Positions 17,713 through 48,200 of a stretch of DNA of 56,605 nucleotides are shown here, piece by piece. Source of the DNA: Spirogloea muscicola (lineage: Eukaryota); the NCBI GenBank assembly GCA_009602725.1, contig WELB01000029.1, positions 363,737 to 420,341 on the forward strand, written 5' to 3'. Made by a program: the position numbers and the translations under genes. The notes under the pieces are model-generated. The model worked only from the letters and a program-made list of their open reading frames with translations. It searched no databases and had not been told where the DNA came from. Every line of letters starts with the position of its first letter. The stretch's first letter is position 1.

Positions 17713-18325
17713 GGGGGGGTGACTCTTCTGCCACATTCGTCGCAGGCCTGCTCATCTGGTAGTGAGGCCATGCAGGGCAGGCTGCTGCTNNNNNNNNNNN
17801 NNNNNNNNNNNNNNNNNNNNNNNNNNNNNNNNNNNNNNNNNNNNNNNNNNNNNNNNNNNNNNNNNNNNNNNNNNNNNNNNNNNNNNNNNNNNNNNNNNNN
17901 NNNNNNNNNNNNNNNNNNNNNNNNNNNNNNNNNNNNNNNNNNNNNNNNNNNNNNNNNNNNNNNNNNNNNNNNNNNNNNNNNNNNNNNNNNNNNNNNNNNN
18001 NNNNNNNNNNNNNNNNNNNNNNNNNNNNNNNNNNNNNNNNNNNNNNNNNNNNNNNNNNNNNNNNNNNNNNTGAGAGGGAGGGAGGGAGGGAGGGAGGGAG
18101 GGAGGGAGGGAGGGAGGGAGGCAGGGGGAGAAGGAAGGTGAGAGAAGCAAAACAGGCGAGACGGGAAGGAGCGGGAGCGTGTGGAGGAGGGTGCGACGAG
18201 GGGAGTCCTGACTGACCCGTCTGCGCCGCCACGCTGCCGGCCAATGCAGCGGCCGCCACGCCGAGCTCCTCCTCCTCCGGCATCGCCCCCACCGCCGCCG
18301 CCGCCGCCGCCGTCGCCGCCGCCAT
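11783..18325 (-). CDS. DUS3: tRNA-dihydrouridine(47) synthase DUS3-like, with two CCCH zinc fingers; about 13 exons
   Basis: Motifs: [19 protein letters not shown] fingers [11 protein letters not shown] and [51 protein letters not shown] (catalytic Cys); [34 protein letters not shown]-terminus [16 protein letters not shown]. The first exon (~18218-18325) is inferred across the N gap. Confidence 0.95.
17674..18125. repeat. Poly-G and (GGGA)n tracts flanking an assembly gap (N 17790-18070) in DUS3 intron 1
   Basis: Directly visible. Confidence 0.95.
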
Positions 18326-21511: not shown

Positions 21512-24500
21512 ATGGCGCCCGCGGCGGCGGCCATGACGGGCCCGAAGGCGCTGCTCTGGGCCGCCGTGCTGCTGAGCTGCTGTGCCGCCGGCGCACTCGC
21601 CGCCTGCGGCGCACCAGGTGGGCGCCCACATCCTGCCGGGCTGTTCGTCCTGAGGTCCCCTTCTGCACTGTGAAGCATGGCCCTGGCCAGGTCCCACTGA
21701 CAGTGCCCTGCCGCCGTGGCCGCAGCGGGCAGCCTCGTGGGGCAGGAGAACTGCCTTCCCGGCGCCGGCGCGAGCTGGCGGCACAGCGTCGACCTCAACA
21801 TCGTCGGCTTCTCTGACGACATCAGCTACGAGCCCGGCAGCGCTGTCAGCTTCAAGGTGGCTCCTGGGCCCCCCCTCCCTCGTGGAAACTCTCTGTCTGC
21901 CTCGTCCTTCCCTTTCCCTTCCCTTCTCGAGCTTCTGTGCAAAACCCATGTTAGCCCCACTGCGAGCTGGTCAGCTCACAGTATCTCCTCTTGCAGCCTC
22001 CTTGCCATTGACGACGCTGTTTGCAATGCAAGCCCGAAGGTCGTCAACTTCGGGCAGCATGCGTGCCCTTTGCTGCTTGTGCTCACTGGCTGTCACCACT
22101 GTTGGGGCTGTGCCTGCTGCCTTCCGGCACTTGTGCAGATCAAGGTGGCCACTGGCAAGACTTTTGCGTCTCTCAGCGTGCTGCGGCTCGGTTGGTACAA
22201 CGGCGACGGAGCGCGCGTGGTGACTACGGCACCTGTGACGGCCACCGGCACCGCCACGCAGCCGGCGTGCGCTTACAACTCAACCACGGGCCTGGAGGAC
22301 TGCGGCAACTGGGCCACGACTGCAACGTGGACAATTCCAGCCAACGCTGTCTCTGGTTCGTCATCTTTACATACTCTCCCCTCCCTCCAAAGGCTTCCCT
22401 CTTAGCTCTGGGCTTGTTGCACAGGCCTCCACAGTCCCGCATCCGAGCTTCATTTCTAACACCATCATGTGCTGGTAGTTTTGTTCGTGACACTGGAGCA
22501 CGAGGCAACAAACTATACTTAGTGGAAAGTGGCTACAGTTCTTACTCTTGGTCTCTACGCTTGCCGTTGTGGTCCTCACCAACTCGTTAAATCGCCACTT
22601 CCTCACTCCTCAGGTGTTTACTCACGTCCTCGTCATCTTTGCAGGTCTGTATTTGGCACAGCTGCAAACAACAGGCAACCTGTACAACTATGTTCCCTTC
22701 ATCGTTCGACAGCGTGCATCAGACACTGCTCCATCGGCCATCCTCTTCCAGACTTCTGACACAACCTGGCAGGTCCAGCTTCCTTAGCCGTCACCTATGC
22801 AAGATTTTTCCACGTTTCCCCTTCTCAACTCATGGTAGTGGCTGCTACCACAGAGAGGCCATTGCCATTAGCGGGGCTCCGGCAGAGGGTGCATGGGTGA
22901 TGAGCAGAAAGGTTGTATTCTCGTCCACGCCTTCATGTTTGCATAGCTGTCCTATTTGAGGAAGTATGGTCACCACCTGCATCCCTGGTCTGTAAGTAGC
23001 ACCTGAAGACTGTCAAGACCGTGGTGCAACTTGGCTGCGTCTGTTGAGCTGCCTCCTGTGCGTTTGCAGGCGTACAACTTTTACGGGGACATGGGCAACA
23101 GCTTGTATCGTGGCAAGGGCCCTGGCAATGGGGCCTCGTCCGGCAGAGCATACAAGGTTTGGCCATGACAATAAAACTTTGCCTTCATGGTCTCAAGTCC
23201 TTTTTGCATAGACAAGCCCAGGGCCTGTGAGCAAGCAGAGTCTGCTCGGTGACACTCACATCGAAATTTAACCCTGAATTGTCTTGCCATACTTATGTGC
23301 AGGTCAGCTATAACCGGCCGTTCATCACACAGACCGGGGACTCAGTGAGCAACTCTGTCACAGGGCCGCAGGACTTCCTCTTCAATGCTGAGTACCCCAT
23401 GATCCGGTGGCTTGAGCGCAATGGGTACGACGTTTCCTACTTCTCTGGCGTCGACAGTGATCGCTATGGCTCGCAGATCCAGGTATTTCCATTCTTGCTG
23501 GATAAGCATGTAGGCAGCTATGAGCGAGCTGCTTCAAGGTCAAGGGGCCAGCATTGCACAAAATTCAAGTACTTGTAGATATGCTACATGATGCACAAGT
23601 CATGTAGCACTACACCGATGGTGGCACTTTGACTTCACTCTAGATTGCATTTTTACTGGAATACATCCTTTCATGTGACTTTCGGTGCACGTTGATGCAG
23701 CTTCACAAGGTATTCATATCGGTCGGCCATGATGAGTATTGGTCTGGCGGCCAGCGGCGAGCTGTTGAGGCAGCCAGGAACACGGGCGTTCACCTGGCAT
23801 TTTTCTCGTGAGAGTTCCTCCGCTGCAGGCCATCAACTGGCATGCATAAGAAAAGTGACTACAAAATCTGACTTTCACCACGTCAACGTGCCTTCAACAG
23901 GGGCAATACTGTCTTCTGGAAGACGAGGTGGGAGGCTGACCTGAACAACAAGGCCTACCGCACGCTCGTCTGCTACAAGGAGACGCATGAAAACGCAAAG
24001 ATTGATCCCCTTCCAACCGTCTGGACAGGTTGCCTCTGCTCCTGACGTAGCAGATAGCTCTGGTTTTCTCATGCTTGCATGCAACACGTCCAAGTGCAAG
24101 CATGTCTGAGCAAGCCCCTACTCCGCCACTGCTCATTTGCATTGCTGTGTAGCACTCTGCTTATGTCATTACTGTATAGTGCATGTTGCTGCTGTGTCAA
24201 AGTGCACGCCTCTGCAAAACGTACATGGTTCCTGTACCAGCCAGGCGACTTGAAACAGCCAGGTTTGCCGTAGAGCGATTATGGACTACAGCGAGGACTG
24301 ACAGCCTCTTTCTCTATCAGGGACCTGGAGAGACAATCGTCCTTTTGTGCCCTCTGGTCCTGATGGAGGTAACCAGCCAGAAAATACTCTCACAGGACTC
24401 ATTTTCCTTGTGACTGGTGGTACCGTGGATTTGCAGGTGAGAGGGCTGTATAGGCTAGTGTACAATAGAATGCTTATTGATAGAGAAGCCTGCTCTATCG

Positions 24501-27500
24501 TGCTTAGGCTCACACCGTGTCCACAATATGCATGCTGACTGTGCACATGATTTTGTCTCACACAGTGTATCGTACATTAGACATGCAAGCACTCTGTGCT
24601 TCACAGCATGTCTAGGAGGAGAATTACAATAAAGGATTTCTTGTGTGATTTATTGGAGACTGTTGTGCTTGTGGTGCAGGTACCTGTCAGCGCCAGCCGA
24701 TTGCGGTTGTGGAGGAACACCGCGGTGGCCTCGGAGACGAGCACAACCACCCTGGTCCCAGGCACAGTTGGTTACGAGTGGGACGTCGACACTGACAACG
24801 GCCTTCGTCCTGCTGGTCTGCACGAGAAGGGCCTTTGACCTCTATTAACTTTCACATTTAGTACATTTGAGTGCTGAATTTACAGAGATCCATTGTCAAC
24901 CTTCACCCGTTTTGCTGCAAGTTCAGCAGGGTGCCATGACTTGTCCAACACTGGTAGCTAACGAAATTGTCAATATCTGGCAGGGCTCATTCTGCTGTCC
25001 AAGACAGATGCGCAAGGAGTATCTGTGCTGGTGGACCAGGGTTCGAACTACGTTGACGGGCCTGCCACGCACACGATAAGCCTTTACAAGTGGGGCTCTC
25101 TACCAGCTATGCTTATGTGCTTATGCATGTAAACTGTCCACAAAGTGGATCACATTAACATGTTTTTGCAGAGTGCTCTGCAAAGCCCCTGCTGACAATC
25201 AGAGGTGGCCTGGCTTTGGAGGCAGACACGCCAGTGGAGCCCTGGTGTTTGCATCTGGCACTGTCCAATGGGCATGGGGCTTGGATGGAACCCACGACCG
25301 TCCCGAGAACTCGCCAACTGCTGTTGACCTCCAACCAATGCAGCAGGCCACAGTCAACCTCTTTGCTGATATGGCGGTCTTCCCTGCCACCATCCAGGTT
25401 TCCCAGCCTTGTCATGTGACAGCATGTTTTTGTTGCCCACTCTGTGAGCCTTACCCATAAAATTAGATGCTAAAATGTAAAGATCCAGAAGTAGATTCAC
25501 AACATCAGCACACACGACTTTTCCTAGTATTACATTTAACTGGACAGTGACAACCTTGACACCTCATCTGCGTGCGGCGCAGAGCAACCTGGTGTCCAGC
25601 ACCGCTTCGACGGACACACTGGCGCCAACAGCCAGCGTTGACTCTTACCCGCATTCGGGGTCCTCCTTGGCACAAGGAGCCTCTGTTACAATCAGTGGGA
25701 GCGCGACTGATCCGGGCTCGGAGGCGAGCGCCACCCAGATTGGCTCCGTCGAGGTCTCCACTGATGGTGGCGCTACCTGGCACCCCAGCACCACTCTAGT
25801 GCGCAGCTCAACAAGGTGCACAATTGCCGCCAGGCGTGATGATCCTTTAGTCAGCCCTCCTTGACTCTTCTGAGCGTTGCGCTTGAGATGCCATGCACAA
25901 TGTGGGGTCCGGAGAGCAATACAACCCTTGCCGGCTGCTTTAGCTGATTGCTGTGGCCAAGTGTAACCCACCTAATAAGTCATTGTTTGTGGCGTGCACC
26001 TGCAGTGCTACCTGGACATACAGCTTCACAGTCTCCAGCAGCAACTCCTCCCTCAGCCTCAGCCTTACGGCACGCGCCACGGATGACAGCCTCAATACAG
26101 GGGACGCTTCTGCGAGCATATTGGTCGTGTACCAGATGTCAGGGCAGCCAGCTGTAGGTGGTCCTGGCTCGCCAAGCCACTGCCCTTGCAGGATCTTTGG
26201 GGACAGCTTCCCAGCACCCGACCTTGTTGACGTGTCTGATGGGGTGAGCCACCGCGACAAGTAATTTGGGCATCTCACAACCTATAGTTGTACGACCTAC
26301 AATTAGACAACCTGCACGTAGATTCTGTCTAATTCAGTGAGGTCTTTCTGAGAACATAGGTGGGGCGAAGCTGACAACCAACGATGTTGTAGAGGAACTG
26401 ATGTGGACTAGACATTGTCGCTTGCTGCCCTCTAACAAGGGCAAATGTGTTAACAGCATCCTATCACCGTCGGCAACAAGGTGTACTTCCAATCAGATGG
26501 CTATGTCACTGGCATGCGTCACTATGCCAGTGTCAGCAGCTACTCCTACACGGCCCGCATCTACCAGGAGAATTGCACTCTCCTTGGGCAGGTCAGTCAT
26601 TCTGCCCGAGTTGAAGGGGCTAACCACGTGCATGTATGTAAGACCGGCTGATTTGTATGTTAAGGACGTGGAGACTCCCTATATGAGCTTGGGTGTTGAC
26701 CTGAAAGTGACATAGCACAGATGTTTGTTGATCTCTGCTGGAATGACCTTCACCTCTAGTTGTCTTGATGACGCTTGGCTGCCACTTGCAGGCTGCTTTC
26801 CCCGTCGTTTCCACCGCAGGCTGGCAGAATGTTTACTTTCCTTCCCCTGTACAAGTCACTGCAGCTACTACATATGTGGCAGCAGGTCGATAATCAATGC
26901 TCCAGACAGTCCTGTGCATGTAGCAAAGAACAACTATTACATTGTTTGGAACAATCTTGGCTCTACTTTTCAATACTCATCATGTGTGTGCTCTGAGCTT
27001 GTGCTCGCACTCGGTGATTGCAGTGTACTCACCGGATGGTAGATACAGTGACACAAATGGCTTCTTCGGAAGCATCACCAGTTACTCCGACTCGCAAGTG
27101 GCATTTGGTCAAGGAAATACCGCCGCCAGCCCCAACAATGTCTATATCTATGACAACGCATGCCCCAATGGTCCAGGCAGCTCGACTTATCAATCAGCCA
27201 ACTACTACATTGATGTCATCTTTGATTACGTCCCCGGCAGTTCAGATCCTCCAGCTGTAAGATCTTATGATGCACAGTATCTCCCATCTTTGCTGCTTAC
27301 ACCAATCAAGCTGGCAGCTCAATTTGCAGCTGCATGCAGGCTTACATGCTATCACATGTGCAAGTCTTACTCATGCAATGAGGTGACAACCTGCAGGTGC
27401 TTAGTATTAGTCCGGCAGATCAGGCCACAAGCGTGCGTACAAGCATAAGTTCAGTCATTGCTGCGTTCACCGAAAGCCTGGACCCTGCGACTGTGTCATC

Positions 27501-30500
27501 AAGCACCGTGACACTGATGGATGGTGCCAGCCCAGTTCCTGTAAGTGTCTCTCCTGTCTCACGATTTTCCCATGCTGTAATTAGAGGGCTCGCTGTGCTG
27601 TCATTCAGGTGAGCTAGCCTTGTGTGCATATTATGGCTACCACTCACAATTCGAGTAAAGCCTTCCAGTTACTCATTATGGCTTAATTGGCCCTGGCAGG
27701 GAATTGTCAGCTACGATTCCTCGCAGCTCGCAGTTGTCTACACACTGTCCAACAGCCTCGACGGGTCAACCAACTATGTGCTGACGATCAAGGGCGGGAC
27801 AGGTGGGGTGAAGAACACTTTGGGGACACCGCTTTCTTCAGATTTTACCTCAAGCTTCACCACCGGTGCTGCACCCATCACGCTGCCAGATCCCAACAGC
27901 GATAACGGCCCAGGTATGCTTTGTGTTATGGGGATATTGCTCCAAGCTAGAGTGTGGAGTCAGACTCGTGTCCGCTGCAGATCAGAAGTATGTGGAACCT
28001 TGGGTCATCAAGAGCAAGTCAACTTGCTATTGACCAGTGAAGGGCACCGGGACCTGGGGCCGTCGTTACAAAGGGTCCTCTAATTCAATCAACTAGCTTG
28101 CAGGGGGCCCAATCTTGGTAATTGTCAGTACCACCAATAAGTTCTGCCGGTACTTTGGCGAGATCTTGCGCGCCGAGGGCTTCAACTTGTTCACAATCAA
28201 GGACATTTCGGCCGTGACCAGCGCGGACCTCACGGCTGCTGATGTGGCCATTCTTGGAGACATACAGGCCGTGACGGCTGCACAGGCAAGCAAGCACAAG
28301 CAAAGTGTCTGTGATATAGTCGCGCCAACAGGGCGTGGCAACTTGCAAGAAACATGCTCGTGCAGATGTCGTATAATGGGGACCCAAGTAGCATTCGATC
28401 AGACTGGCCTGCAGATTCCTCGGCTCTGCAACACAATGTCTCACATGCATCTGCGTTGGGCACCTTGGGCAGGTCTCGTCGTTGTCCAACTGGGTGGCTG
28501 GTGGCGGGCGACTGATAGTCAGCAGGCCAAGCACGCTCTTTGCCTCCCTCCTCGGGCTCACCAGTGTCTCGGGCATCATCAGTGAAGGCTATTTCCTTGT
28601 CGACACTACTGTGGCACCTGGCAAAGGTACACATATGTCAGCACTTAGGCATCTCAGGAAAGGTATGCAAGGATTGTTTAGACATCCACAATTTCTGCTG
28701 CTAGAAAGACATGTACATCAATATCAACGTCCATATTTGTCCCGTACTTGCAGGCCTGACATCTGAGTCGATGCAGTACCACGGGACCAGCGACCAGTGG
28801 CAGGTCGATGCTGCAGCTTCTCCAGCTACCAGGAGGGTGGCCAGCCTCTCGGCGACGGCAACAGCGAGCACCGGGCTGGTGGCCGTCAGCTTGCGGACAG
28901 TGGGCGTTGCAGGCGGCCAGGTGGCTGCATTCACGTTTGACATTGCACGTTCCGTGGTGTACACAAGGCAGGGCAACCCAGCGTGGGCAGGCCAGGAGCG
29001 CGACATGATCAGCCCCAAGCGTTCAGATGACCTGTTCGCCCCCCAGCCCTGGCATCTGCAATGCTATCAACCACTGGAAATTATGGACCATTCAAGTGCA
29101 ATAGTAGACCCTTGAATATTACGTGTGGATCCACCTTCAGAGCTAGTCTTGAAAGTGGTGCCAAGATGCAAGACATGCCCTCCCCAAGGGCTGCATTAAT
29201 GACAGGAGTTCGTGTAATCATGACACAATCTGACAAGAGAGGTCTACGTTGCTGTATAGCAGATCAGGCACTGTTACTGCTCTCTGAGTCGTGTACATGC
29301 CCATGCAGATTCTACGGCGTGGTCGGCCAAGAGTGGGTGAACCGCGACAAGGTGCATATCCCTCAGGCAGATGAGCTGATGCGGCTACTGTCCAACGTCA
29401 TCCGTGCCCTGACCTTTGACATCAAGCCCCTCCCCAAGCTCTGGTACTTCCCCAACTACTACAAGGTGGTCGTCATCCTGACGGGCGACGAGCACGGGGA
29501 CGGCAATGTCGCTAGTCGCTTTGACAACCTGATGGTGACGCTCTATTTCATCTGGCCAACTCAGAAGTAGACCCACTCCATCAGGCGAATCTTAGATCCC
29601 ACATCACAGATCCTTACCATATATAGACACAGTTGTATTTATCCTAGTGCTAATACTTAAGTAGACCCCACATTGCGTCCTGCTATCTTCCCTGGCAATA
29701 TCTTGACATATCGACAGCAAGCTCCTTGTAGTAGCCTGACCTCATTCAACTCAAGCTCGTGCTGTTGTGGGCATTGCCACCTTGCTAGGCTGCCGATCCA
29801 CCGAGCTGCAACCTTACAAGGTGGGAGTGCATCAGGGGTTCCTCGTACTTCTACCTGGGTGGCTCCTTCAGCAACACGCAGGCCCAGGTCCACTGACTCC
29901 TGCCCATGTCTTGTGCCAATGCATAATGGTTGTTGCTTTATCAAGTCAGACGCTAGCTTACCTACGTCAGTCTCAATTGCTTAACTTCTTGTGGGCCTGG
30001 ACTTGCAGCACTATCAATCTCTTGGTTTTGAAATGGGAGTGCATGTGAACACCGGCTGCGCCGACTGGACACCAGCAACTTTGGACCAATTCTACGTTGA
30101 CCAGCTAGGCTCATTTGGTGAAAAGTACACGTCAGTGCCACCGCAAACGACGCACCGCACGCACTGCATTGCGTGGAGCGACTGGGCGACGCAGCCTAAG
30201 GTGGAGCTCAGCCACGGTGGGCCGTACTGAACCACCTTCACCTGGACACAGGCCTCTTTCACATTGTTTTCTGGCACGCAGAATGCTTAGAAACAGCAAC
30301 AATCATCACTGTGTACCTTATCTGCAGGCATTCGGCTGGACACGAACTACTACTATTACCCTCCTTTCAACACGCAGGGCCAGCCTGGCTGGATCTCCGG
30401 CACGTATGTCGGCCACATGTCTGGCTCTGCCCTTCCCATGAGGTGCGTCCACTTAAGCTGACAGCATTGACACCGAGCAGTAGCAAGTGGAGGAGCCACC

Positions 30501-33500
30501 TTACCCACGTCGTTTGACTGTATGTGCTGCTGACACGTTCTTTGAGGAGTTTGACAGTTACTCCTGGCAGTTACTTAACGCCCATGTTTCATCACACAGA
30601 TTTGCAGACCTTGACGGGCAAATAATTGACGTTTTCCAAGTGATGACTGAGATGACGGATGAGTCAGGCCAGACATACCCGAGCTTTGTGAACACGCTCC
30701 TGGACGCAGCTCTCGGCGCGCCACAGTACTACGCCGCTCTGACAGTCAACGCTCACTCCGACTCGGAGCCCAATCCTGTGACCCAGGCGATCGTTGCGGT
30801 GACCATCTTGCTGCCTAGAAGAACCCTGTGACATAGTCGCAGGGCACATATTGCATGCTTGAGATGGATGGGCTTATGCAATATGCAGGTCACAAGAAAA
30901 CCACAATCTGATGGTTGACAGTTGGTCGCTTTGTGCAGTCAAGCAAGTCGAGGAACACGCCAGTCGTCAGTGCTACTCAGATGCTCCAGTGGATCGATAA
31001 GCGGAACAAGGTGTCATTCAGCAACATTGTCATGTCGCCGGCTAGGGACTCACTGACGTTCACCGTCGCCACCTCGGGCAGCTTCCCCTGGGGCGTTACA
31101 TCAACCCTGCCTACCATCATCAACTCGGGTATGTGCTCTTCACAAGTCAATCAAGGGGCTCTGATGCCATGACCCTGGGTTTCACCACATCCAGCTGGAG
31201 TTGGCGGTACAGTAGCATGAGCATCATTCAGCCTCTGAAGATAAACAACAAAATGAGCGTCACCCAGCAGTATGCAGTTGATTTCAGCTGCAAGCTACAT
31301 TGCAGCTACATGGACTTGGTTATATCTCACAAACTTGATCCATGTCAGGAGTGCTGCTGGGCATCACTGGACCAGGCGGCGCTGTCTCGTACAAGACCGA
31401 CACAATAAAGGGTGAGTGTGGCAGCCAGCCTCGGTAGCCTGCCCCTGTGTGACATGTCGCACTGCAGCAAATATGTTGGGCTAAAGAATTTCTTGAATGT
31501 GCGAGTGTTTTTCTCGGGCTTCATCCATGTGCAGGCATCCAGCACGCGGTCTTCGCAGTCATTCCGGGCGATTACACTGCCACATACAGCAATGCGCCGC
31601 TGCCGCAGTCGCCTCCGCCGCCCCCACCTGTGGCTCCAGCCCCTGCGCCCGCTTCCTCACCTTCTGCACCAACGATCTACGACAGCACTGCTGCAGACTT
31701 CGCAGCAGCTACTACACTGTCGGCTGCCTGCTACATATCCCAGGAATCTGATGGCGAGGTCATTCTGGCCCCCACACTTGGTGAGCTTATCAGTTGCCTT
31801 GGTCAGTCTGCAATTGTCACTCAGGCATCTGGTTGTGACGTTAAGCAAGGTAGGCCTCAAAGGGCTGTGCACCAAGCGAGTGCTGCAGAGATGGTCATCA
31901 ACCTGACATCCTCCAAAACCGAGTGTGGCAGCGACGGAGTTTCCGTCGCCACTGGGGCCCGACTTTCAGGCAGATGTTTGGGACGGCACGGGATCACTGA
32001 CGTACGCACCAACGGGCAAGTTGACGCTGAGCCGAGCATACGTACGGGCAGCGGCATACACGGCCGCCCCCACAGGCGATCAGGTCGTCGCGCTCGAGTT
32101 CTCCGCCAACTTCTCGGCCGACGCTACTGCCTCCCAGAACCAGCACGTGGGCTTTGGCACAGACCTTAACGGCTGCCCCTGGGCCCTTATAAGCACGACC
32201 AGGGGCTCATCAGGCCAGCTATATGCGCGAACATGCGGCCCGTCGAACTCCGACGAGGTCATCGGTCTCGGCGATAGCTCCCTCGGCTCCTTCCACACGT
32301 TCCGTATCGAGGTGGGCGGCGCTTGGCTCCTCACTCCCACTCAATGTATCCTCTGTTGACCTGTTCGCTAGGCAAAGAAGCAGCACCGAAGCAGACAATG
32401 ACCCGTGTTTCCTACATTTGGTTGGCAGTGGCGGGCAACCGGGTTCACGTACCTGCTCGACGGTGTTATGGTGGCCATGTCAACCGTAACGATTGGTAGT
32501 CAGATGAGGCCGATTGGCAGCGCATACTCAAGCAACCCAACGACGCTGACACTGGACTGGCTGCACCTCAGCCCCTACAGCTCCGCAGCGTGCCAGTTCT
32601 CATCGCAGCCGCTGGCAGCTCCCGGGGCTGCGGCGGTTATGTGGCAGTCTCTGACACTGGACGAAGATGTGCCGGCGAGTACTTCTATTGGGGGAGTGGC
32701 ATGGAGCTATGGTAGTGTCCTGCCACCAGACACGTCCTGGACGACTGTGGCGCTGCCGACCCAGGCGAGTGCCACATGGGTGCTGAGCCCTGGGAGTGCG
32801 TCGATGTACATGATATACTCATTTGCGCTGGCATCAACCGATGGGCAGCACACCCCGGCAGTGCGGCAGGCTGCCGTCACTTATGGGACAGGTCAGCCGC
32901 AGTTGTTTGAGCATCAATATCTGAGTTTCCTGATTTGCATCAACTACTCTGTAGACTGCAGCGGCTCAGGCCTTGTGCTGACTGTGCAACTCTTTCTGCA
33001 GCGTCCTCACTGTCGCCGCCGCAGCCGGTGTCTCCTCCGCCACCTCCCACGCCACCTTCACCAAAGACGTCATCTCCAGTACTGCCGCCGCCTTCATCAC
33101 CGCCCCCAGTTGCACCAACGCAGCCCCCAATGACAAACTCTAACCTCACAGACACGAACACCACAGACTTTGCCGCCGGCTCGGCGACCGGCTGCTACAT
33201 TGCTCAGCGCAGGGACGGTGAAGTGATTGTGGCGCCAACACTTGGTTAGCATTCTCTTCCCTGCAAAGCTTCTTAAGGTCTTTGCAAGCTGGGCTTTAAT
33301 TATCCTGGTGCAAATCTTTGGGCACACTACGAATCTTACATCTGCGCTTTGCCTTCTGCCTGTTATCCAGCGACTGAATTCTCGGCACCAGTGGGCTCTG
33401 ACTTCGAGGCAAACACCTGGGACAGCCAGGGTGCATTGACGTATGACACGACGGCGGGCACTTTGACGTTGAGCCGAGCGTATGTGCGGGCGGCAGCATT

Positions 33501-34961
33501 CACCATGGCCCCCACTGGCAGCCAGGTCATTGCACTCGAGTTCTCGGCAAAGTATGCAGCTGACGCGGCTGCATCGCAGAACCAGCATGTTGGATTTGGC
33601 ACCGACCTCAATGCCTGCCCGTGGGCTATTATTAGCACAACCCGAGGCTCATCAGGTCAGCTGTATGCACGGACATGCGATGGAACAAACAGCGAGGAGG
33701 TCATTGGCCTCAGTGACAACTCCCTTGGTGCCTTCCACACGTTCCGGATTGAGGTGAGTGGCTCTTGTTGGCCCCACGTGCTTCTTCCAGTGTGGCCTCC
33801 AATTTCTGTGTGTGTGCTCTTGTGGCGCATTATGTGTCATTAGTGAAGGTGGACCGCACGAGGCAGAAAGAGCATGACGTGTAACCTCTGTCATTGGCTT
33901 GCAGTGGCGAGCGACTGGATTCACATATCTGCTCGACAACGTTGTGGTGGCAACGTCAAGCGTGACAATCAGCGCCCAGATGAGGCCAATCGGCAGCGCG
34001 CTCTCAAGCAACCAGCCAATCCAGCTGACGCTGGACTGGCTGCACCTGCTACCATACGGCCCCACCTCGCCCTCTTGCACGTTCACATCACGAGCGCTCG
34101 CTGCGCCAGGCAGCACACCGGCTCTGTGGACCTCGCTCAGTCTGGAGGAGGACGTGCCGGCAGGCACGTCTGTCACATCGGTGAGCTGGAGCTATGGGGA
34201 CGTCCTGCCGCCAGATGCGTCCTGGACGACGACGGCTCTGCCAGCCAACGGTGGCCCCGTTTACACACTTGCTGCCAGCCGCCCGACCAAGTACATGGCC
34301 TACTCGTTCGTTCTCTTTCCGTCAGCTGATGGGCAGCGCACGGCAGCCATTGGCGCAGTCGCTGTCTCATACCAGCCAGGTAAGCTTCACCATCACCATT
34401 TGTGCAAAATGCTTTACTCTGAAATGGTTGTCTGCACTGTGAGCCGGCTGCCACAGCCCTTACCCCCTTGGCCATTTGGCCTTCGTTTGTATCAAACACT
34501 TCAAATTTTCCAGTGGGAGATCCACTTTCTTCATTCTATTGTCTTTCTTTTTCTCCGGATATAAATCCCATTATCTGTTTGCCGCAGCGCCGCCGCCGCC
34601 GCCATCACCGCCGCCGCCGCCGCCGCCGCGGCCCTGGCTGCGCAGGCTTCCCGCGAGGCCCTTCCTGGCGGCTCACGGTCTCCTCACGGTCTCGTCGTCT
34701 GCCAGTCCACTGCCTGCGACATGGTCGTCCGTTAGCTAATGTGCCGCCGATGGCTGCGGCCGCTGCGTGGTGTCGCAGGGCGTCGGCGGAGGCCATGTCC
34801 CGGCGCTGCGGCGACCGCTTCCCTNGCGCCCGCCGCCGCCGCCGCCGCGCCCGCCGCCGTCGCCACGGCCTCCACCACCACCTCGCCCACCACCATCACC
34901 TCACCCACCGGCACCGCCTCGGCCACCCCCGCCAACTCGACCTCCACCTCCCCCACGCTAA
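21512..34961 (+). CDS. Large secreted multidomain protein: signal peptide; N,N-dimethylformamidase-beta-like (DUF6605-type) domain; Ig-like; DUF4082; Big_5-like Ig; GATase-like plus deacetylase-like region; two tandem lectin/ConA-like modules; SPn/Pro-rich linkers and tail. About 36 exons
   Basis: Spliced translation: MAPAAAAMTGPKALLWAAVLLSCCAAGALAA (signal); [206 protein letters not shown] tail. Family names come from motif recognition, not a search. Confidence 0.85.
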
Positions 34962-37033
34962 CTTGCCATTATCCAGCGACCTCCACTAATGTGCTCCTCA
35001 AGTCACGCTCTGACCAGGCACTGCAGACGAGGGCTGCTAGTAAGCCATCAGGAGATGAAGGATTCACTGAATAGACTACACACACTTCAGCTTTTCATAC
35101 TCTTCAGTCTTCTGCTTTTATTCACATGCAACGCATGGCAGAGTTAAGAGCTTCGTGAGCTGCAGAGCAACCCCGGTATCCTGACTACCCATTTGTCACT
35201 TGTGAGCACTAAGCAGCTCTGAATCTTCACACATTTAATCCTGTAGTACTACCGCCCATTAGCTCTTTATGCATATGAATCAGAATCAAGATGGAACAGA
35301 ATAACTCCAGCATGTGCTGCAGCCAGAGCAGGGCCGATCAGAGGTGCAGCTCGTCCAAAGGAGGTGAGGGCTGTAATAAGCCAATTCACATGAAAATGGA
35401 CATGGTTGAAAAGCTGGAAAGCGCAAAGAGCACTGAGCTTACTGTGCAGCAACTAAACCTTCTGCAGCTACCTGCTTTGGGAGAGAGCGTCTTGTCCCCA
35501 TCCCCAAGTAGAGGTAAAGAAAGAAAAGCGCAGCCCAATTGACTGGTGGCTGTGAAAGGCCAGCCCAAAGGAATGGACAAGGTCTGAAGGAGCCGGATGG
35601 TGCAGAAAGCAAGGTACTAATGACTAAGACGGCAGCAAGGGGACTCTCAGTAACCTCTAGTCAGTGGATGCAAATCGGAATAACTAGCAGGCGGATTGAC
35701 GTTGCCCTGACGGAAGCTGGAGGCCACGGCCAAAGAGTGGCCCGCGCGCAAGTGGACCGCGAAGACAAGGGACCGCTGCAAGGAGATGGCCAAGCGCATC
35801 CAGAAGACTTGGGCAAGGGACCCGGCGACATTGAAGCTCGCACTGCTGCCCGTGGCGCGGGCCACTGCACTCCGCGCAAGGGGGTGAATAAGGTCAAGCC
35901 ATTCTGTCTCAAAAGCTCCGTGTACGTCGACGGCGAGTGGGACGAACTCCTCCCCCTTTGGGTGATACGGACCAGCTCTATCAAAGGAGGCGAGTAAAAA
36001 CTTCTCAGCAGCCGCAGCTTGGACAAAGTAGCAGCTAGAAAGAAAGAAACCGCGTGGTGCCCACGAAATGAACCGAGGAAGACGCCTCCAGGAGAAGGCG
36101 ATGGCTGAGAGTGGCCAGCCCAGACAATGGGGATAGTCCATTCTTTTCTGGGCTGGCTTTGCTAGCCCCTCTTTTTCTATGGGCGAGCCCTTCCCCCAGG
36201 GATTGGGGGGGGGGGGAAGGAGGGCCGGCAGAGCCCCTGGGGGCCTTTCCGGCAGCTAGTTTGTCGGATTTGAGGCTCCTCACTCGTAAATACTGAGTGG
36301 TCCATCCTCCCCCATTCTGACATAGCATTTTCAGGCCCCTTCGTAGCTGCTTAGCGCTTTTTCGGCCCTTCCGTCAATTGGCCCCTTCGAACCTTTGTCA
36401 ATTCTTTTCGGGCTGGCTTTTCACAGCCCTTGCCCCCATTGGGAGTGCCAATTCTTTCCTGCTGAGTGGTCCATCCTCCCCCGTTCTGACATAGCATCTT
36501 CAGGCCCCTTCGTAGCGAGCACTTTCTTCGTGGCTGCTTAGCACTTTTTAGGCCCCTCCGTCATTTGGCCCCAACGAAACTTTGTCAATTTCTTTTTCGG
36601 GCTGGCTCACAGCCCTTGCCCCCATTGGGAGTGCCACCTCTTCTTTCCTGCGTCTTCTAGGCAACCCGACGAGACCCAGAAAAAGAAAGCGTGGCCCAAG
36701 AAAGAAGAAGAAGGGCTCGCCCATTGAGGATAGGAGCTGGGAAATGCCAGCCCAAAAGAGAATAAAGAAATGACGAGAAGGGGCCAAGGAAACTAAGAAT
36801 CAATAAAAAAGCACGTCCGGAAGCAGCAGCCATGGCACGGCCTGCCCGCAAGTGTACTGCGTGAGCTGGGGACCGGAGGAAGATTGGGAGCAAGCGCGGC
36901 CAGATTAACTGGTGGCTGGGAGAGGCCAGCAAGAGATTGTGGGTAGCAAAGTAAAACAGCACTTCCGAATTGACAGCAGTGGCTGTGAGAGGCCAGCCCA
37001 AAAGGAATGGACAACTGGACAAAGGACACAAAG

Positions 37034-38801: not shown

Positions 38802-39535
38802 AAGAAGTGGCTCTCCCAATGGGGGCAAGGGCTGTGAGAAGCCAGCCCGAAAAGAATTGACAAGGTTCGAAGGGGCCAAATTACGAGCTAAGCAGCTACT
38901 AAGGGGCCTGAAGAGGCTATGGCAGAACGGGGGAGGATGGACCTACTCAGTAATTACGAGTGAGGAGCCTCAAATCCGACAGACGAGCTGCCGGAAATCT
39001 ATCCCCCTGACGAAATCCGGAGGCCGCAGCGAGAGCACGGCCAGCACGCAGATGCAAGGCGTGGGCCATGGACCGCTGAAGGGGGTCGGACAATCGCATA
39101 CGGTGTACCTGAGCCCACGAGCCAGCGGCGGTGAAGTCAGCCGGCTCACCGCGCCTGCGGGACACAGCGCGCCGTGCAAGCCGACAGGTCGAGCCAGTGG
39201 GATCCGAGAGCCCCGTGCACGTCCACAGCCAGGGGGGCGAACTCATCGGCAGCCGGGTGGTCGGCGTGTTTGGCCGCCTTGCTGCGAGCGGCCTTCGCCG
39301 CAGCGTGGCCAGCCCGCGAGGCAGAAAGCCCCGGGTTGGAGCGGTCGACCACATCAGTGGTGACCACATGGGCAATGATGCGGCCGCCGCCGCCGTCGTG
39401 GACGCCACCAGGTCGACGCGGCGCGTGTGGAGTCCGTCGGCCCTCTGGAGGATGGGCATGACAGACGTATTCTCCATCGCAACTGTGTATCCGGCCTCCA
39501 GGAAGATGCCGAACATTGCGTCGCGGAGGAGGTCG
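38802..39535 (-). mobile_element. 5'-truncated CRE-like copy with 8-bp TSD TGGGCAAG
   Basis: Highly similar to 37034-37773. TSD at 38794-38801 and 39536-39543. Confidence 0.85.
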
Positions 39536-40075
39536 TGGGCAAGCCACCGGCGACGTTGACGCCGGGCAGCTCACCTCGCTGTCCCTGCCCACGGAGCGAA
39601 CAAGGTCCACGTGGTGATGGCCGTCCTGGAAGGCGCGCGGAATTAGGAGCAGCAGGCAGCTGAAGGAGAAAGAAGAAAGAGAAAGGGCTCGCCCGTTGAG
39701 GATAGGGGCTGGAAAAGCCAGCCCAAAATGAAGTGAACAAGGAAGGAAAAAGCGCGGCCAGATTGACTGGTAGCTGTGAGAGGCCAGCCCAGGAAAAGGA
39801 ATCGACAGTCTGAAGGAAGGGACAGGAAAGGCCTGGAGGGGCGAAGGCTCGGAAAGGCTTGGGAAAGATTAGCGCGGCCAGAAGATTGACTGGTGGCTGG
39901 GAGAGGCCAGCCCACACGAATGGACAAGGTCTGAAGGAGCCGGAGTGCTAAGGACTGAGACAGCAGCAAAGGGGAAAGGCTCGGAAAGGCACCTCCGGCG
40001 GGACGTCTCCCTGTCAGCCAGCTGCACTCCCCTGTCAGCCAGCAGCAGCTCGCGTCCACCCCCGCGGCTGCCCAC

Positions 40076-42595
<2,520 letters not shown>

Positions 42596-43665: not shown

Positions 43666-44572
43666 CTAGTGTCGCTGCGACTGCGGGGCTTGCGTGGGCA
43701 GGCCGCTCTCACGCCATGCGGCAAAGCCGCCACCAACGTCCGTCACGCCGACATACTCCTGTCCATGCATTAACGACGCCATTAGCTCTATAGTCTTAGT
43801 ACACTGCATCAACGACGCCATTAGCTCTCTCTAACCTTATTACATTAGCTGGCATGCCAGCGGCCCAAGTCCTAGGCGTACGTCGAGTGTGGGGGGGAGG
43901 GAGGGGACTCTCTGTGCACTCACCGCGCTTTGAAGCTCCGCAGCCGCTTTCATCGACCGTTTCCCGCTCTGGCAGCCCTGCGGTGGACGCCACGACGCAG
44001 CACACAGCCAGGCGGCAGAAGTCAGGCCGTGTAGGCGACGCCAGCTGCAAGCATGGCGGCATCAGCGGCAGCAGCAGCGGCGATGCTCACCACAAGGATC
44101 TCATCGGCTTTGTCAAAGTGCGCAGCGACCTCCGCTAGGAAGTCCTGCTTCCTCGTCATGCCTGTGGTGACGAAGACGGCAGATGAGCAATGGCGCTGCC
44201 AAGCGGGGCAACTAGCCACCCATGCCGACCGGACAGCCGGCTTGCGAGGTGCGGCCGAAGCGCCAGTGGCGGGGGTTTGCTCTACCGGTGGGCGTGCGGT
44301 GCATGTATGGCACGTTGACGGCGCCGGGGACGTGGCCGCCGCCGAACTCCTCCTCCGTCCTGTCGCCAGCCCATGGCCAGAGCAAGTCAGCAATTTGCGT
44401 GGTAATGACTGCGACAGTGAGCGGCATTGACATCGGGGGGAGGGAGGGAGGGAGGTGGAAGAGGCAGGTGGGCCCTGACCTAACGTCGAGGTAGAGGTGG
44501 CCGGCCTCCATGAGCTCGTTCGCGACTTGCACCGGCACGCTGCGGATAGTCACTGCCTCGCCTGTCGCCGCC
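43666..44572 (-). CDS. Single-domain rhodanese/sulfurtransferase (STR15/16/18-like); 5' exon lies in or beyond the N gap
   Basis: Exons: SVPVQVANELMEAGHLYLDVR / TEEEFGGGHVPGAVNVPYM / GMTRKQDFLAEV..DEILV / GCQSGKRSMKAA (active-site Cys loop) / VTDVGGGFAAWRESGLP..*. Confidence 0.9.
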
Positions 44573-44875
44573 TGCAGGCGCACACTGCACCACCATCCGC
44601 CACAGTTCCGCACAGTCTTGTCACAGGTGAACCAGGGTAAGCCCAATAAGTCGTGGGCGCTTTGACAAGAAGAGGGAGGGCTGAAGAGGAAGTTGGGGAG
44701 GAGAGAGACGCACATGATGGGGTGGGGGGGGGTGGAGCACATGATACAGGCAGATGTGCATAACTATAATAGGACGGAGGAAGGAGCAGAGGGAGGGGAG
44801 ATGGAGAATGGAGAAGAAGGCGTGGAGGAGGAGAGAGGCGGAGGAGAGGCGGAGGTTGTGAGGAAGGCAGGGGGG

Positions 44876-45495
44876 NNNNNNNNNNNNNNNNNNNNNNNNN
44901 NNNNNNNNNNNNNNNNNNNNNNNNNNNNNNNNNNNNNNNNNNNNNNNNNNNNNNNNNNNNNNNNNNNNNNNNNNNNNNNNNNNNNNNNNNNNNNNNNNNN
45001 NNNNNNNNNNNNNNNNNNNNNNNNNNNNNNNNNNNNNNNNNNNNNNNNNNNNNNNNNNNNNNNNNNNNNNNNNNNNNNNNNNNNNNNNNNNNNNNNNNNN
45101 NNNNNNNNNNNNNNNNNNNNNNNNNNNNNNNNNNNNNNNNNNNNNNNNNNNNNNNNNNNNNNNNNNNNNNNNNNNNNNNNNNNNNNNNNNNNNNNNNNNN
45201 NNNNNNNNNNNNNNNNNNNNNNNNNNNNNNNNNNNNNNNNNNNNNNNNNNNNNNNNNNNNNNNNNNNNNNNNNNNNNNNNNNNNNNNNNNNNNNNNNNNN
45301 NNNNNNNNNNNNNNNNNNNNNNNNNNNNNNNNNNNNNNNNNNNNNNNNNNNNNNNNNNNNNNNNNNNNNNNNNNNNNNNNNNNNNNNNNNNNNNNNNNNN
45401 NNNNNNNNNNNNNNNNNNNNNNNNNNNNNNNNNNNNNNNNNNNNNNNNNNNNNNNNNNNNNNNNNNNNNNNNNNNNNNNNNNNNNNNNNNNNNNG
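44876..45495. other. Assembly gap (N run) in the rhodanese 5' region
   Basis: Directly visible. Confidence 0.97.
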
Positions 45496-45764
45496 GCGGC
45501 GGCGGCGGCGACGGCGAGTGCGGCGGCGGCGGCGGCGGCGGCGACGGAGGCGGAGGCGAAGTGTGGCGCTGGTCTGTGGAGGGGGGGCGGTGGAGCTGGG
45601 TGGGGGTGGGGAGCGTGGCGCTTCAAGCGAGGGCCTCGGTAACGAAATGTACTGCCGGAAGGGAGGGGTGGGGGCCCCCCCGGGGCCCCCTCCTCGTCGG
45701 CAACATCCGGTGGGCGCTATCCGCCAGCCGGCCCCGGGGGGCCCCGAATAGATCAGAAGAATGA

Positions 45765-48200
45765 AGCAAGCGCGGCCAGATTGACTGGTGGCTGGGAGAG
45801 GCCATCCCAAACGAATGGACAAGGTCTGAAGGAGCCGGAGTGCTGAGGACTGAGACAGCAGCAAGCGGACGCTCAGTAAGAGAGAGAGAGAGTAACCTCT
45901 AGTCAGTAGATGCAAGTCTGAACAGCTAGAATGCGGAAAGACGTCCCCCAAGAATGGGGTCGAGGTCAGGAAACCGAATTGCTGAGTGGGAGTTCCCTGC
46001 TTTCCACGTCGCTCCATGGCGTTTCCACACGTACGTCGATAGAAAGAGAGCAAGTGCTCGCCCAAAAAGGGTGGGGGCTGGGAAAGAAGAAGAAAGTGGC
46101 TCTTCCAATGGGGGCAAGGGCTGTGAGAAGTGGCTCTCCCAATGGGGGCAAGGGCTGTGAGAGAAGTGTGAGAAGCTAGCCCAAAAAGATCTGACAAGGT
46201 TCGAAGGGGCCAACCTACGAAGGGGCCAGAGGCGCTAGCTCTAAAACGGCAGCTAGTCTGTCGGATTTGAGGCTCCTCACTCGTAACTGCTGAGTGGTCC
46301 ATCCTCCCCCCGTTCTGACATAGCATCTTCAGGCCCCTTCGTAGCTGCTAAGCGCTTTAGGCCCCTCCGTGATTTGGCCCCTTCAAACCTTTGTCGATTT
46401 TCTTCGGGCTGGCTTCTACAGCCCTTGCCCCCATTGGGAGAGCCACTTCTTCCACACTAGGGAAGGATGAATCACTCAGGCTGGGAAAGGCCAGCCTAAA
46501 AAGAAGAAAGAGCTCGCCCATTGAGCATAGGGGCTCGAAAAGCCAGCCCAAAAAAGGATGAACAAAGTACGAGAAGGGGGCCAGGGCAAGCGCTAAGGAA
46601 AACAAGCACAAAAAGAAACAAAGCAGCTACGAAGCACTCAGTAACCCCTGCTAAGCAGCCTCAGGTCAGAGTAAAAGAAAGCTGAGAGAAGCTGGGCTCC
46701 TGGGAGCGGGTCCCCTGGCCAGAGCCAGAGGCAGCAGCGAGGGCTCTGCCGGCACGCAGGTGCAGCGCGCGGGCCATAGACCTCTGCAGCGACACTCAGT
46801 TAGTAAGGAAGGTCGCTCGGTATTCAACAGTCAGCAGCCCTGGAGGATAAAGACGATACGCTCGTCTCCTTGTACATTTCTTTGGGCTGGCCTCTCACCT
46901 TGTTTTCCGGCAGCTAGTCTGTCGGGTTTGAGGCTCCTCACTCGTCGTTATTGAGTGGTTCATCCTAATCCACTTCTGAGCTGGCGCTTATGGCCCCTTC
47001 GTAGTTTGGCCCCTTGGACCCTTGTCCATTCTTTACGAGCTTCTTTTCCTGTCTTCTGCAATTGTCTTCTTCAAGGCCCTCTCTGGCTGCGAGTTACTCG
47101 GACTTGCTGCTGCTCACTCGCGGGTACTGAGCTTCCATCTGCCGATGTGTAGTGTCTAGCTTATCGGTAGAGTGTGTTGTCTAGCTGTGTGGTTTTTCTT
47201 CTCGGCCCCTTTTGGCTGCTTTGGACCTTCCTTGTCCACTCTTTTTAGCTGCTCAACCAGCTCGCCCGTCACGCCATCGTCCACCGCTTCCATGGGAGCC
47301 GGTGGAATTTCCTGCAGCCGGGTCGCTAGCGCAGGTGTACCGTATGCGCTTGGTCGTCTCGTTGCAGCGGTCTATGGCCCGTGCGCTGCACCTGCGTGCC
47401 GGCAGAGCCCTCGCTGCTGCCTCTGGCTCTGGCCAGGGGACCCGCTTCCAGGAACCCAGTTTCTCTGACCGGAGGCTGCTTAGCAGGGGTTACTGAGTGC
47501 TTCGTAGCTGCTTACTTTCATTCTGTGCTTGTTTTTCTTAGTGCTTCCCCAGGCCCCTTCTCGTCCTTTGTTCATTCTTTTTTGGGCTGGCTTTTTCCAG
47601 CCCCTATCCTCGATGGGCGAGCCCTTCTCTATAACTGAGCGAGCCTCATTAGTCGAACTTAGTTGATTCGTGGTTTTCTGGGCTGAGCTGGCCCATCACA
47701 GCCATCGCACTGAAAAGCCTCTCTCTCTTTTTCCCTTAGCGGTCACTTACTTTCACGACTCCTTCCTTGACTTCCCTATTCCTTTCATTCTCTTCGAACT
47801 GGCCTCTGACAGCCATCGCCTACCTTTGGAAGAGCTGTTAGCTTTGAGCGTTCGCAGAAGTACGGAGAGTAGGTTTTTGCGACTTCCGGCCTTTCCAAAG
47901 CCTTGTTCATTTCTCTTAGTGCCTTCTTCTTCTTTAGAGCCATCGCCGGACTTTGGAAGAGCTGTGTGTACTGGGCTGGCCTCTCACAGCCATCGCCTTG
48001 CTTTGGAAGAGCTGATTCTTATATCCAGATGGAATGTATAAGGTCCGAATGTTGTATTAGATCTTGTTCTCTCTTCCTGCCTAGAAGCAGCAGCTCTCCT
48101 TCTCTTCAATACGTTCATTCGTTTGTGGGCTGACTTTATCACAGCCCTCGCCTTTGAGGAGCTGCCCCATTTTCTGGAAGAAGCTTCATCTGGAAGAGCT
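45765..48200. mobile_element. Second cluster of CRE-like 3' fragments, both orientations, with a degenerate tandem UTR tail
   Basis: ORF ends SDLHLLTRGY (~45890, -), LSDLRLLTRN (~46260, +), LLSRGY (~46640, - and 47496, +) and LLTRRY (46954, +). Repeated gggctggcctctcacagccatcgcc..tttggaagagctg units at 47680-48200. Confidence 0.82.

What the first reader, a model, noticed from the sequence alone, without database searches (positions are those of the whole stretch)
31590..34961. Extensin-like SPn/Pro-rich linkers grafted onto the bacterial-type domains
Seen: Pro-rich blocks (APLPQSPPPPPP ~31595; SPPQPVSPPPPPTPPSPK..PPPSSPPP ~33010-33130; [13 protein letters not shown] ~34590; a PPSPRPPPPPRPPPSP tail to 34961) separate and follow the globular modules. 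Knowledge: SPn motifs are Hyp-O-glycosylation signals of green-plant HRGPs. Inference: the acquired gene was domesticated as a chimeric HRGP for the cell wall or mucilage, with stalks displaying enzyme or lectin heads.
Basis: partly seen in the sequence, partly recalled or inferred. Interest (0 to 1): 0.7.

Follow-up and report, generated by a model that had tools for sequence, protein, structure and literature searches.

The report
Bacterial gene given plant-style proline stalks
A green alga carries an intron-rich gene whose domains match a giant bacterial protein and were likely acquired from bacteria; two proline-rich spacers that nearly all bacterial relatives lack now separate its predicted sugar-handling modules and are likely sugar-coated stalks, which would show how an alga adapts a borrowed gene for its wall or slime.

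Summary
The four Pro-rich blocks exist. They lie in a 36-exon gene model (21512-34739, 2320 aa, predicted signal peptide) collinear with single bacterial-type proteins (P0064: residues 17-1901, 42%).

Linkers 1 and 2 are coding. They sit in exons that also carry domain strands, use mixed Pro codons, and recur in two 93%-identical EukProt proteins from Spirogloea muscicola. Relatives lack them: 0 of 262 other proteins and 0 of 83 GTDB genes have two SPPP; most carry an FN3-like domain or a short hinge there.

'Grafted' is too strong. A few relatives have Thr-Pro or poly-Pro spacers at the same junctions, and 45 of 100 carry poly-Pro at another junction. The two lectin-like modules likely arose by duplication inside the alga.

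The C-terminal tail is doubtful. It lies behind an in-frame stop and a lone N, and block 3 is nearly pure (CCG)n like microsatellites elsewhere in the window.

The predicted heads are a CE4-like deacetylase barrel and GH16-fold modules without the catalytic acids. The protein meets the sequence definition of a long chimeric extensin; hydroxylation, glycosylation and location are untested. An earlier scan note covered the bacterial family, not the linkers.

The parts
21512..34739 (+). 36-exon gene model, 2320 aa; 34 GT-AG introns and one GC-AG intron (after 28285), 93-297 nt long; last exon uncertain
   Evidence: open spliced frame, all acceptors AG; collinear with single bacterial-type proteins; 93-96% identical EukProt proteins follow the same exon joins over residues 1088-2270 and in the N-terminal part
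21512..21617 (+). Exon 1: predicted signal peptide (the only strongly hydrophobic stretch, residues 14-32)
   Evidence: hydropathy 2.17, next best 1.47; same N-terminus in P0265 and P0266; no SignalP run
22139..25397 (+). Exons 3-12: DMFA2_C (dimethylformamidase beta-subunit-like) domain
   Evidence: PF20254 hits on exons 3, 4, 6, 7, 8, 12 (best E 8.9e-13)
25583..27913 (+). Exons 13-19: Big_7, DUF4082 and Big_5 domains
28104..31590 (+). Exons 20-30: conserved middle region with an alpha/beta part, a predicted CE4/NodB-like deacetylase barrel (invariant D1234, H1294, R1332, H1334; near-invariant H1236, D1410, H1442) and a beta-sandwich
   Evidence: 249 sequences; on the model of the sister protein P0001 (3rxz Z 17.6, rmsd 3.2, 224 aligned); lead (PF01522 on 13% of members, score 0.90)
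31591..31674 (+). Pro-rich linker 1 (28 aa, 46% Pro, one SP6), inside exon 30
   Evidence: kept in P0001 and P0006; pLDDT under 50
31675..32884 (+). Module A: GH16/ConA-fold jelly roll within a beta-sandwich, no acidic residues on the strand that is catalytic in GH16; three introns at or beside it
   Evidence: 3i4i Z 18.7, rmsd 2.3, 165 aligned
33002..33144 (+). Pro-rich linker 2 (about 50 aa, 42% Pro, SP5 and SP3), first half of exon 33
33145..34375 (+). Module B: duplicate of module A (66% identical), introns at the same three positions
34588..34634 (+). Pro block 3 (P5-S-P7), start of the last exon; almost pure (CCG)n; absent from the two EukProt sister models, which end at the preceding donor site
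34635..34825 (+). Non-Pro stretch with in-frame stop (34737-34739) and a lone N (34825): likely mis-assembly at the CCG repeat, or a 90-nt intron at 34689-34778
   Evidence: donor/acceptor options; lone Ns at 2088 and 53102 also follow CGG runs; no codon periodicity
34827..34961 (+). Pro/Arg-rich tail (44 codons, 32 Pro, then TAA), probably the true C-terminus
   Evidence: positions 1-2 low entropy, position 3 high; CCG 12, CCA 12, CCT 6, CCC 2

Best explanation
This is a likely secreted algal protein whose domains were likely acquired as one gene from a bacterium, and whose two Ser/Pro-rich spacers likely arose or expanded in the alga and likely act as hydroxyproline-glycosylated stalks holding two predicted glycan-binding modules away from a predicted polysaccharide-deacetylase core. 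Inferred order of events: (1) transfer of a gene of the DMFA2_C-Big-DUF4082-Big-deacetylase-module type; (2) gain of introns; (3) growth of Pro-rich DNA at the hinge before the module and after it, probably helped by CCG-repeat slippage rather than imported from an extensin gene; (4) tandem duplication of the module with its introns, which made linker 2; (5) retention in at least three gene copies. Likely job: binding and de-N-acetylating an extracellular amino-sugar polymer in the wall, mucilage or surrounding biofilm. Shown here: the spacers, their frame, their absence from most relatives, the module clade and the shared intron positions. Predicted: folds and secretion. Inferred only: glycosylation, substrate and location.
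For: Open 36-exon frame. One protein, P0064, aligns to residues 17-1901 at 42%, and 30 of 296 non-algal proteins cover at least 1900 of the 2320 residues.

Junction 1: 0 of 148 non-algal junctions have 8 or more Pro in 20. Junction 2: 1 of 60. No protein of 262 has two SP3+ motifs, nor does any of 83 genes in 80 named GTDB loci.

The six algal modules form one clade (support 1.0); they are 65-66% alike across A and B and at most 43% alike to any of 194 other modules. Their introns are at matching positions.

Linkers are 62-86% identical among three algal copies against 86-97% for domains, while the Pro fraction stays at 0.42-0.59. The AlphaFold2 model of P0001 has disordered linkers and confident domains, with CE4-like and GH16-like folds. 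Of 65 hand-picked bacterial neighbour ORFs, 13 match surface-glycan families.

Klebsormidium has embryophyte-type Hyp-Araf4 (PMC5371791, passages), so the glycosylation machinery plausibly exists in streptophyte algae.
Against: No transcript or glycopeptide was seen. EukProt annotates the sister loci as separate pieces, so a single 2.3k-residue product is my model. The spacers are short and hold only 3 firm SP3+ motifs.

Some relatives have Pro-rich spacers at the same junctions: P0002 and P0003 (Thr-Pro, 58-113 aa), P0115 (TP6), P0043 (PEAPPPAT) and L051 (a run of about 11 Pro). Poly-Pro of 4 or more residues precedes the middle region in 45 of 100 relatives, where the alga has none, so polyproline is native to this family.

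The donor lineage is unresolved: the trees of the module and of the middle region give different sister groups, on long branches. The CE4 His-x3-His motif is not present. The neighbour count has no control set.
Confidence: 0.55

Rival explanations
1. The spacers were inherited: the bacterial donor already had Pro/Thr-rich linkers at these junctions, and they drifted towards Ser/Pro in the alga. They are generic linkers, and any glycosylation is incidental.
For: P0002 has the same middle-linker-module-linker-module layout with Thr-Pro linkers at both junctions. P0003, P0115, P0043 and L051 have Pro-rich spacers too. Poly-Pro is common at another junction (45 of 100).
Against: Only 2 of 148 junction-1 and 2 of 60 junction-2 spacers are 60% or more P+T+S. 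P0002 and P0003 are not sisters of the algal modules in the tree, and P0002's middle region is only 35% identical, against about 54% for the best relatives. The algal module duplication is separate from bacterial ones, so linker 2 cannot simply be an inherited module-module linker.
Confidence: 0.25
2. The Pro blocks are neutral (CCG)n microsatellite expansions tolerated between domains, with no selected role.
For: 19 of 23 six-frame SP3+ readings in the window lie outside this gene, many as pure CCG. Block 3 is 11 of 13 CCG. Linkers diverge faster than domains and carry indels.
Against: Linkers 1 and 2 use all four Pro codons (CCG 4 of 13 and 7 of 21), and Pro content is kept or higher in all three copies despite substitutions.
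Confidence: 0.13
3. The blocks are not in the protein (intron or assembly artefact), or the gene is bacterial contamination.
For: This holds as a real doubt for block 3 and the tail: in-frame stop, lone N, and both sister models end before them.
Against: Linkers 1 and 2 share exons with domain strands that align to relatives, and both sister models include them. The gene has 35 spliceosomal-type introns, and flanking open frames match exon-sized pieces of ordinary eukaryotic-type genes.
Confidence: 0.07

Closest known systems
[quoted passage not shown] 2016, PMC4769139)
   Same: Two or more SPPP, signal-like N-terminus, non-HRGP domains, over 2000 aa
   Different: That survey found them in Ostreococcus, Chlamydomonas and Volvox and not in Klebsormidium or land plants; it sampled no zygnematophyte. 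Here the Pro-rich parts are short spacers (about 3% of the chain up to exon 35) and the other domains are bacterial-type.
Volvox pherophorins and modular Pro-rich/metalloproteinase ECM proteins (PMC9818292, passages and a reference title)
   Same: Globular domains separated by Pro-rich rods in a secreted algal protein
   Different: Those rods are shown to be hydroxylated and glycosylated; here that is untested. Different lineage and unrelated heads.
Bacterial DUF4082/Big_5/DMFA2_C giant proteins with the same middle region (e.g. P0064, P0126, loci L001-L080)
   Same: Domain order and 40-55% identity; conserved acid and His residues of the barrel
   Different: No introns; FN3-like or Big_5 domains or 4-8 aa hinges instead of SPn spacers; poly-Pro at a different junction; module repeats arose independently
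CE4/NodB polysaccharide deacetylases (3rxz, 3qbu) and the related CE18 Agd3 (PMC7229062, passages)
   Same: Predicted barrel fold (Z 17.6 and 16.8); D-[DE]-H after the first strand; invariant Arg and late His; an alpha/beta part before and a beta domain after the barrel recall the three-domain Agd3 layout
   Different: No His-x3-His; an invariant R-x-H-C instead; 11-12% identity; the Agd3 layout was not tested by structure
GH16 beta-glucanases / ConA-like lectins (3i4i, 1gbg)
   Same: Predicted jelly-roll fold (Z 18.7); weak PF00722 match (E 3e-7)
   Different: The strand in the catalytic position reads WALIS/WAIIS, without the E-x-D-x-E acids (motif recalled), so likely binding only

Membership tests
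Chimeric / long chimeric extensin (Liu 2016) | Two or more SPPP repeats | tested here: met
   3 in exons 1-35, 4 with exon 36; P0006 has 3; P0001 has only 1
Chimeric / long chimeric extensin (Liu 2016) | Signal peptide | tested here: met
   single hydrophobic N-terminal stretch, kept in P0265 and P0266; hydropathy only, no dedicated predictor
Chimeric / long chimeric extensin (Liu 2016) | HRGP domain rich in P/A/V/S/G/T plus non-HRGP domains | tested here: inconclusive
   linkers are 42-46% Pro but only 28 and about 50 aa long; whether that counts as a domain is a matter of threshold
Chimeric / long chimeric extensin (Liu 2016) | More than 2000 aa | tested here: inconclusive
   model gives 2270 aa to exon 35 and is collinear with single bacterial-type proteins, but EukProt lists the sister loci in pieces and no transcript was seen
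Chimeric / long chimeric extensin (Liu 2016) | Pro hydroxylation and Hyp-arabinosylation / Ser-galactosylation | not testable with these tools
   needs glycoproteomics
Classical extensin | SPn repeats throughout, usually with YXY cross-link motifs | tested here: not met
   Pro 7%, PSKY 24-25%; the five YxY all lie in globular parts, none in a linker
CE4/NodB deacetylase | Distorted (beta/alpha)7 barrel | tested here: met
   predicted model of P0001 against 3rxz Z 17.6, rmsd 3.2, 224 aligned; 3qbu Z 16.8
CE4/NodB deacetylase | Asp-Asp motif 1 and His-x3-His motif 2 (metal triad) | tested here: not met
   motif 1 is D-E in the alga (D-D in 203 of 249); H1294 is invariant but position +4 is mostly G or N, with no His among its four commonest residues
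CE18 (Agd3) with CBM87 | Three-domain layout and motifs CM1-CM4 | not tested
   the fold of the complete region could not be obtained; the P0001 model lacks most of the N-terminal alpha/beta part
GH16 hydrolase | Beta jelly-roll fold | tested here: met
   3i4i Z 18.7, rmsd 2.3, 165 aligned
GH16 hydrolase | Catalytic E-x-D-x(x)-E strand (recalled motif) | tested here: not met
   the strand just before the segment aligned to 1gbg 116-186 has no Glu or Asp in modules A or B; position inferred from adjacency, not from a residue-level structural alignment

The most novel reading that the evidence does not exclude
A whole bacterial exopolysaccharide-modifying surface protein was captured by a zygnematophyte alga and converted into a long chimeric extensin, a class not reported outside chlorophytes in the survey read. 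Its Hyp-glycosylation signals arose de novo from CCG microsatellites, and the same Pro-coding DNA served as the crossover site that duplicated the lectin-like module. The protein would edit amino-sugar polymers in the alga's mucilage or in its bacterial biofilm.
Probability: 0.25. Interest if true: 0.72.

Novelty: new variant of a known kind. Interest (0 to 1): 0.47.

Why it matters
[quoted passage not shown] This locus allows a before/after comparison on one gene: hundreds of intron-less relatives without SPn spacers against three algal copies with them. It offers a testable case of how a foreign secreted protein is fitted to the plant O-glycosylation code, and a eukaryotic member of a large uncharacterised bacterial deacetylase-like family.

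Tried and rejected
No RNA holder was listed for 28000-35300, so splicing was not tested on reads. No whole genome is held for this window. A 19-nt pattern from the end of exon 35 gave 36 metagenome matches; none had a blastn hit to the window (E 1e-5) or a tblastn hit to the model (E 1e-3).

Matching introns of the two repeat units share no DNA similarity beyond 7-12 nt matches. The 195-nt insert has no strong second copy in the window (best other match E 0.002). Exons 20-37 gave no Pfam hit one by one. A PDB sequence search with the middle-region alignment found nothing at E 1. Agd3 is not among the 50 rows, which is inconclusive because the model lacks part of the region. A second fold, of the complete middle region, was not obtained.

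No other eukaryote-labelled protein appeared among the hits listed (5 of 5; 120 of 408; 36 of 36; 150 of 2908) carries no labels, so the range among algae is not settled.

Paper searches found no description of this gene or of SPn spacers on a transferred gene: listings of 20 each; 0 papers; 0; 2 bacterial papers, listing only; 8 listed, none with the term dimethylformamidase. Johnson et al. 2017 was not held. Rejected: classical extensin, active GH16, contamination.
Full report
Gene model. The finding lies in the 3' third of one long + strand gene. Reading three frames and splice signals gave 36 exons from 21512 to 34739 and an open 2320-aa frame, with introns of 93-297 nt, all ending in AG, 34 starting GT and one GC; coding GC is 0.60 and intron GC 0.49. 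Pfam on 37 single exon pieces found DMFA2_C, Big_7, DUF4082 and Big_5 in exons 3-19 and nothing after. Residues 14-32 are the only strongly hydrophobic stretch.

Closest proteins. A search with exon 34 returned 5 proteins, the best an EukProt protein at 94%. Its cluster holds two entries labelled Spirogloea muscicola, P0001 and P0006, each 93% identical to the model over residues 1088-2270. N-terminal pieces P0265 and P0266 from the same two scaffolds carry the signal-like start. Their start-to-start spacing from the C-terminal pieces (7274 and 7257 nt) is close to the 7259 nt in the window, so the public annotation has probably split one gene. All other listed hits that carry a name are bacterial or come from metagenomes; most carry none and are treated as bacterial by assumption. 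P0064 aligns collinearly to model residues 17-1901 at 42%, and 30 of 296 non-algal proteins cover 1900 residues or more. Transfer from bacteria is inferred from this pattern; the donor is unresolved.

Are the blocks real? Linker 1 (31591-31674) lies inside exon 30, between the last strands of the middle region and the first strand of module A. Linker 2 opens exon 33. Both use all four Pro codons, show low entropy at codon positions 1-2 and high at position 3, and are present in P0001 and P0006. Shuffling the 2270 residues of exons 1-35 never gave three SP3+ motifs in 2000 trials. The AlphaFold2 model of P0001 (76-sequence alignment, mean pLDDT 84, pTM 0.52) has pLDDT under 50 at 479-501 and 824-863, the two linkers, and at one loop, 283-295.

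The 3' end is different. Block 3 follows a good acceptor at 34588 but is 11 of 13 CCG. It runs into about 190 nt without periodicity, a TAA at 34737-34739 and a lone N at 34825; the 44-codon tail then resumes in the same frame, with coding-like wobble and its own TAA. Either the assembly mis-extended through the CCG repeat (lone Ns at 2088 and 53102 also follow CGG runs) or a 90-nt intron at 34689-34778 removes the stop. Both sister models end at the exon-35 donor, which can mean a real stop or a truncated model. As a control, 19 of the 23 six-frame SP3+ readings in the window lie outside the gene, many at pure-CCG repeats.

Profiles of the middle region and of the module were used to cut out junctions. 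In the first set, 57 of 82 middle-to-module junctions were 91-125 aa (an FN3-like domain, PF16656 in the precomputed lists), 12 were 35 aa or shorter, 1 was a 58-aa Thr-Pro linker and 12 were longer than 125 aa. In the full set of 262 non-algal proteins, 0 of 148 first junctions and 1 of 60 module-module junctions reached 8 Pro in 20; 14 proteins had one SP3+ and none had two. The set holds near-duplicates and is the top of the hit lists, not a random sample. Among 83 genes in the best 80 of 590 GTDB stretches (Actinomycetota, Chloroflexota, Acidobacteriota, cyanobacteria, proteobacteria and others), none had two SPPP and one had a poly-Pro run at junction 1. So SPn spacers are algal in this sample.

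Against 'grafting': P0002 and P0003 have Thr-Pro linkers at the same places, several short hinges contain Pro (P0043, P0115), and 45 of 100 relatives have four or more Pro before the middle region, where the alga has none. Expansion of a Pro-containing hinge needs no host donor gene.

History of the repeat. In a FastTree tree of 200 near-complete modules (partial ones left out) the six algal modules form one clade with support 1.0; A and B are 66% alike and at most 43% alike to any other module. The three introns at or beside each module sit at the same residues and phases, so the duplication followed intron gain. Linker 2 and block 3 both start right after the equivalent phase-1 intron, and linker 2 ends with a PPPVAP word shared with linker 1. 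This fits unequal crossing-over between Pro-coding stretches, but low complexity makes that an inference only. Among the three copies the linkers are 62-86% identical, with indels, against 86-97% for domains, and the Pro fraction holds at 0.42-0.59.

What the spacers carry. The model's barrel matches polysaccharide deacetylases (3rxz Z 17.6, rmsd 3.2, 224 aligned; 3qbu Z 16.8), and the modules match GH16 and lectin jelly rolls (3i4i Z 18.7, rmsd 2.3, 165 aligned) (Foldseek, gives the jelly rolls too). D1234, H1294, R1332 and H1334 are invariant in 249 sequences, but His-x3-His is missing, so it works like a CE4-type enzyme without being filed as one. The strand in the GH16 catalytic position has no acids (motif recalled). 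Of 130 neighbour ORFs I sent 65, chosen by hand; 13 match surface-glycan families and 15 are further members of the same family; there is no control. The barrel part agrees with my fold search; the Agd3 layout was not tested.

Literature seen. PMC4769139 (passages): extensin candidates need two SPPP; long chimeric extensins exceed 2000 aa and were found only in three chlorophytes among 16 genomes. PMC10762512 (passages): extensins are reported in charophyte walls, with little known of location or function. PMC5371791 (passages): Hyp-Araf4 in Klebsormidium. PMC9818292 (passages): pherophorin rods. PMC11096116 (passages): transfer of wall enzymes into streptophytes. PMC7229062 (passages): Agd3 motifs. 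Searches showed no description of this gene. I saw neither the Spirogloea genome paper nor any supplementary list of transferred genes or exclusive domains; the gene may be listed there.

Verdict. It is a new variant that joins two known themes; interest 0.47.

Noticed in passing
window 28285-28473: The only non-GT donor of the gene: a GC-AG intron (CAG|GCAAGC) is needed to keep the frame and the match to relatives.
   Followed up: partly
window 27880-28110 (model residues about 950-975): 45 of 100 non-algal relatives have a run of 4 or more Pro just before the GGPIL motif; the algal protein has none there.
   Followed up: yes
L051:4808-9277 (Geobacter sp. MAG): A run of about 11 Pro directly after the middle region, the position of algal linker 1; two family members lie in tandem at this locus.
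   Followed up: partly
L008, L028, L043, L048, L053, L065, L072, L073: Bacterial family members lie directly downstream of sugar-transferase (PF02397) or DegT aminotransferase genes, as at the end of surface-polysaccharide clusters.
   Followed up: partly
window 2088, 11199, 34825, 40627, 53102: Single Ns next to CCG/CGG, poly-C or (TC)n repeats, suggesting short-read gap-closing joints; nearby sequence may be mis-joined.
   Followed up: partly
window 1615-1647, 9317-9355, 18283-18324, 40093-40122, 45494-45559: Interrupted (CCG)n microsatellites that read as SPn in one frame outside this gene; possible raw material for extensin-like motifs.
   Followed up: partly
window 15644-16141 (-), 41963-42424 (+), 44022-44763 (-), 52234-52722 (-), 55644-55985 (-): Exon-sized pieces of a DUS3L-like, a 2-hydroxyacid dehydrogenase, an isopropylmalate-type dehydrogenase and a malate dehydrogenase gene (Pfam), and a rhodanese-like piece (recognised from memory).
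   Followed up: no
window about 20200, 35500-37000, 39000-39900, 45700-46400: A dispersed, apparently non-coding repeat family with recurring ggctgggagaggcca words flanks the gene on both sides (seen).
   Followed up: no
EukProt P0001, P0006, P0265, P0266, P0301: The public models split this gene into pieces (N-terminal 302-426 aa, C-terminal 1187-1201 aa from an internal Met). N-terminal pieces come from three scaffolds, in line with a genome triplication that I recall for this species but did not check.
   Followed up: partly
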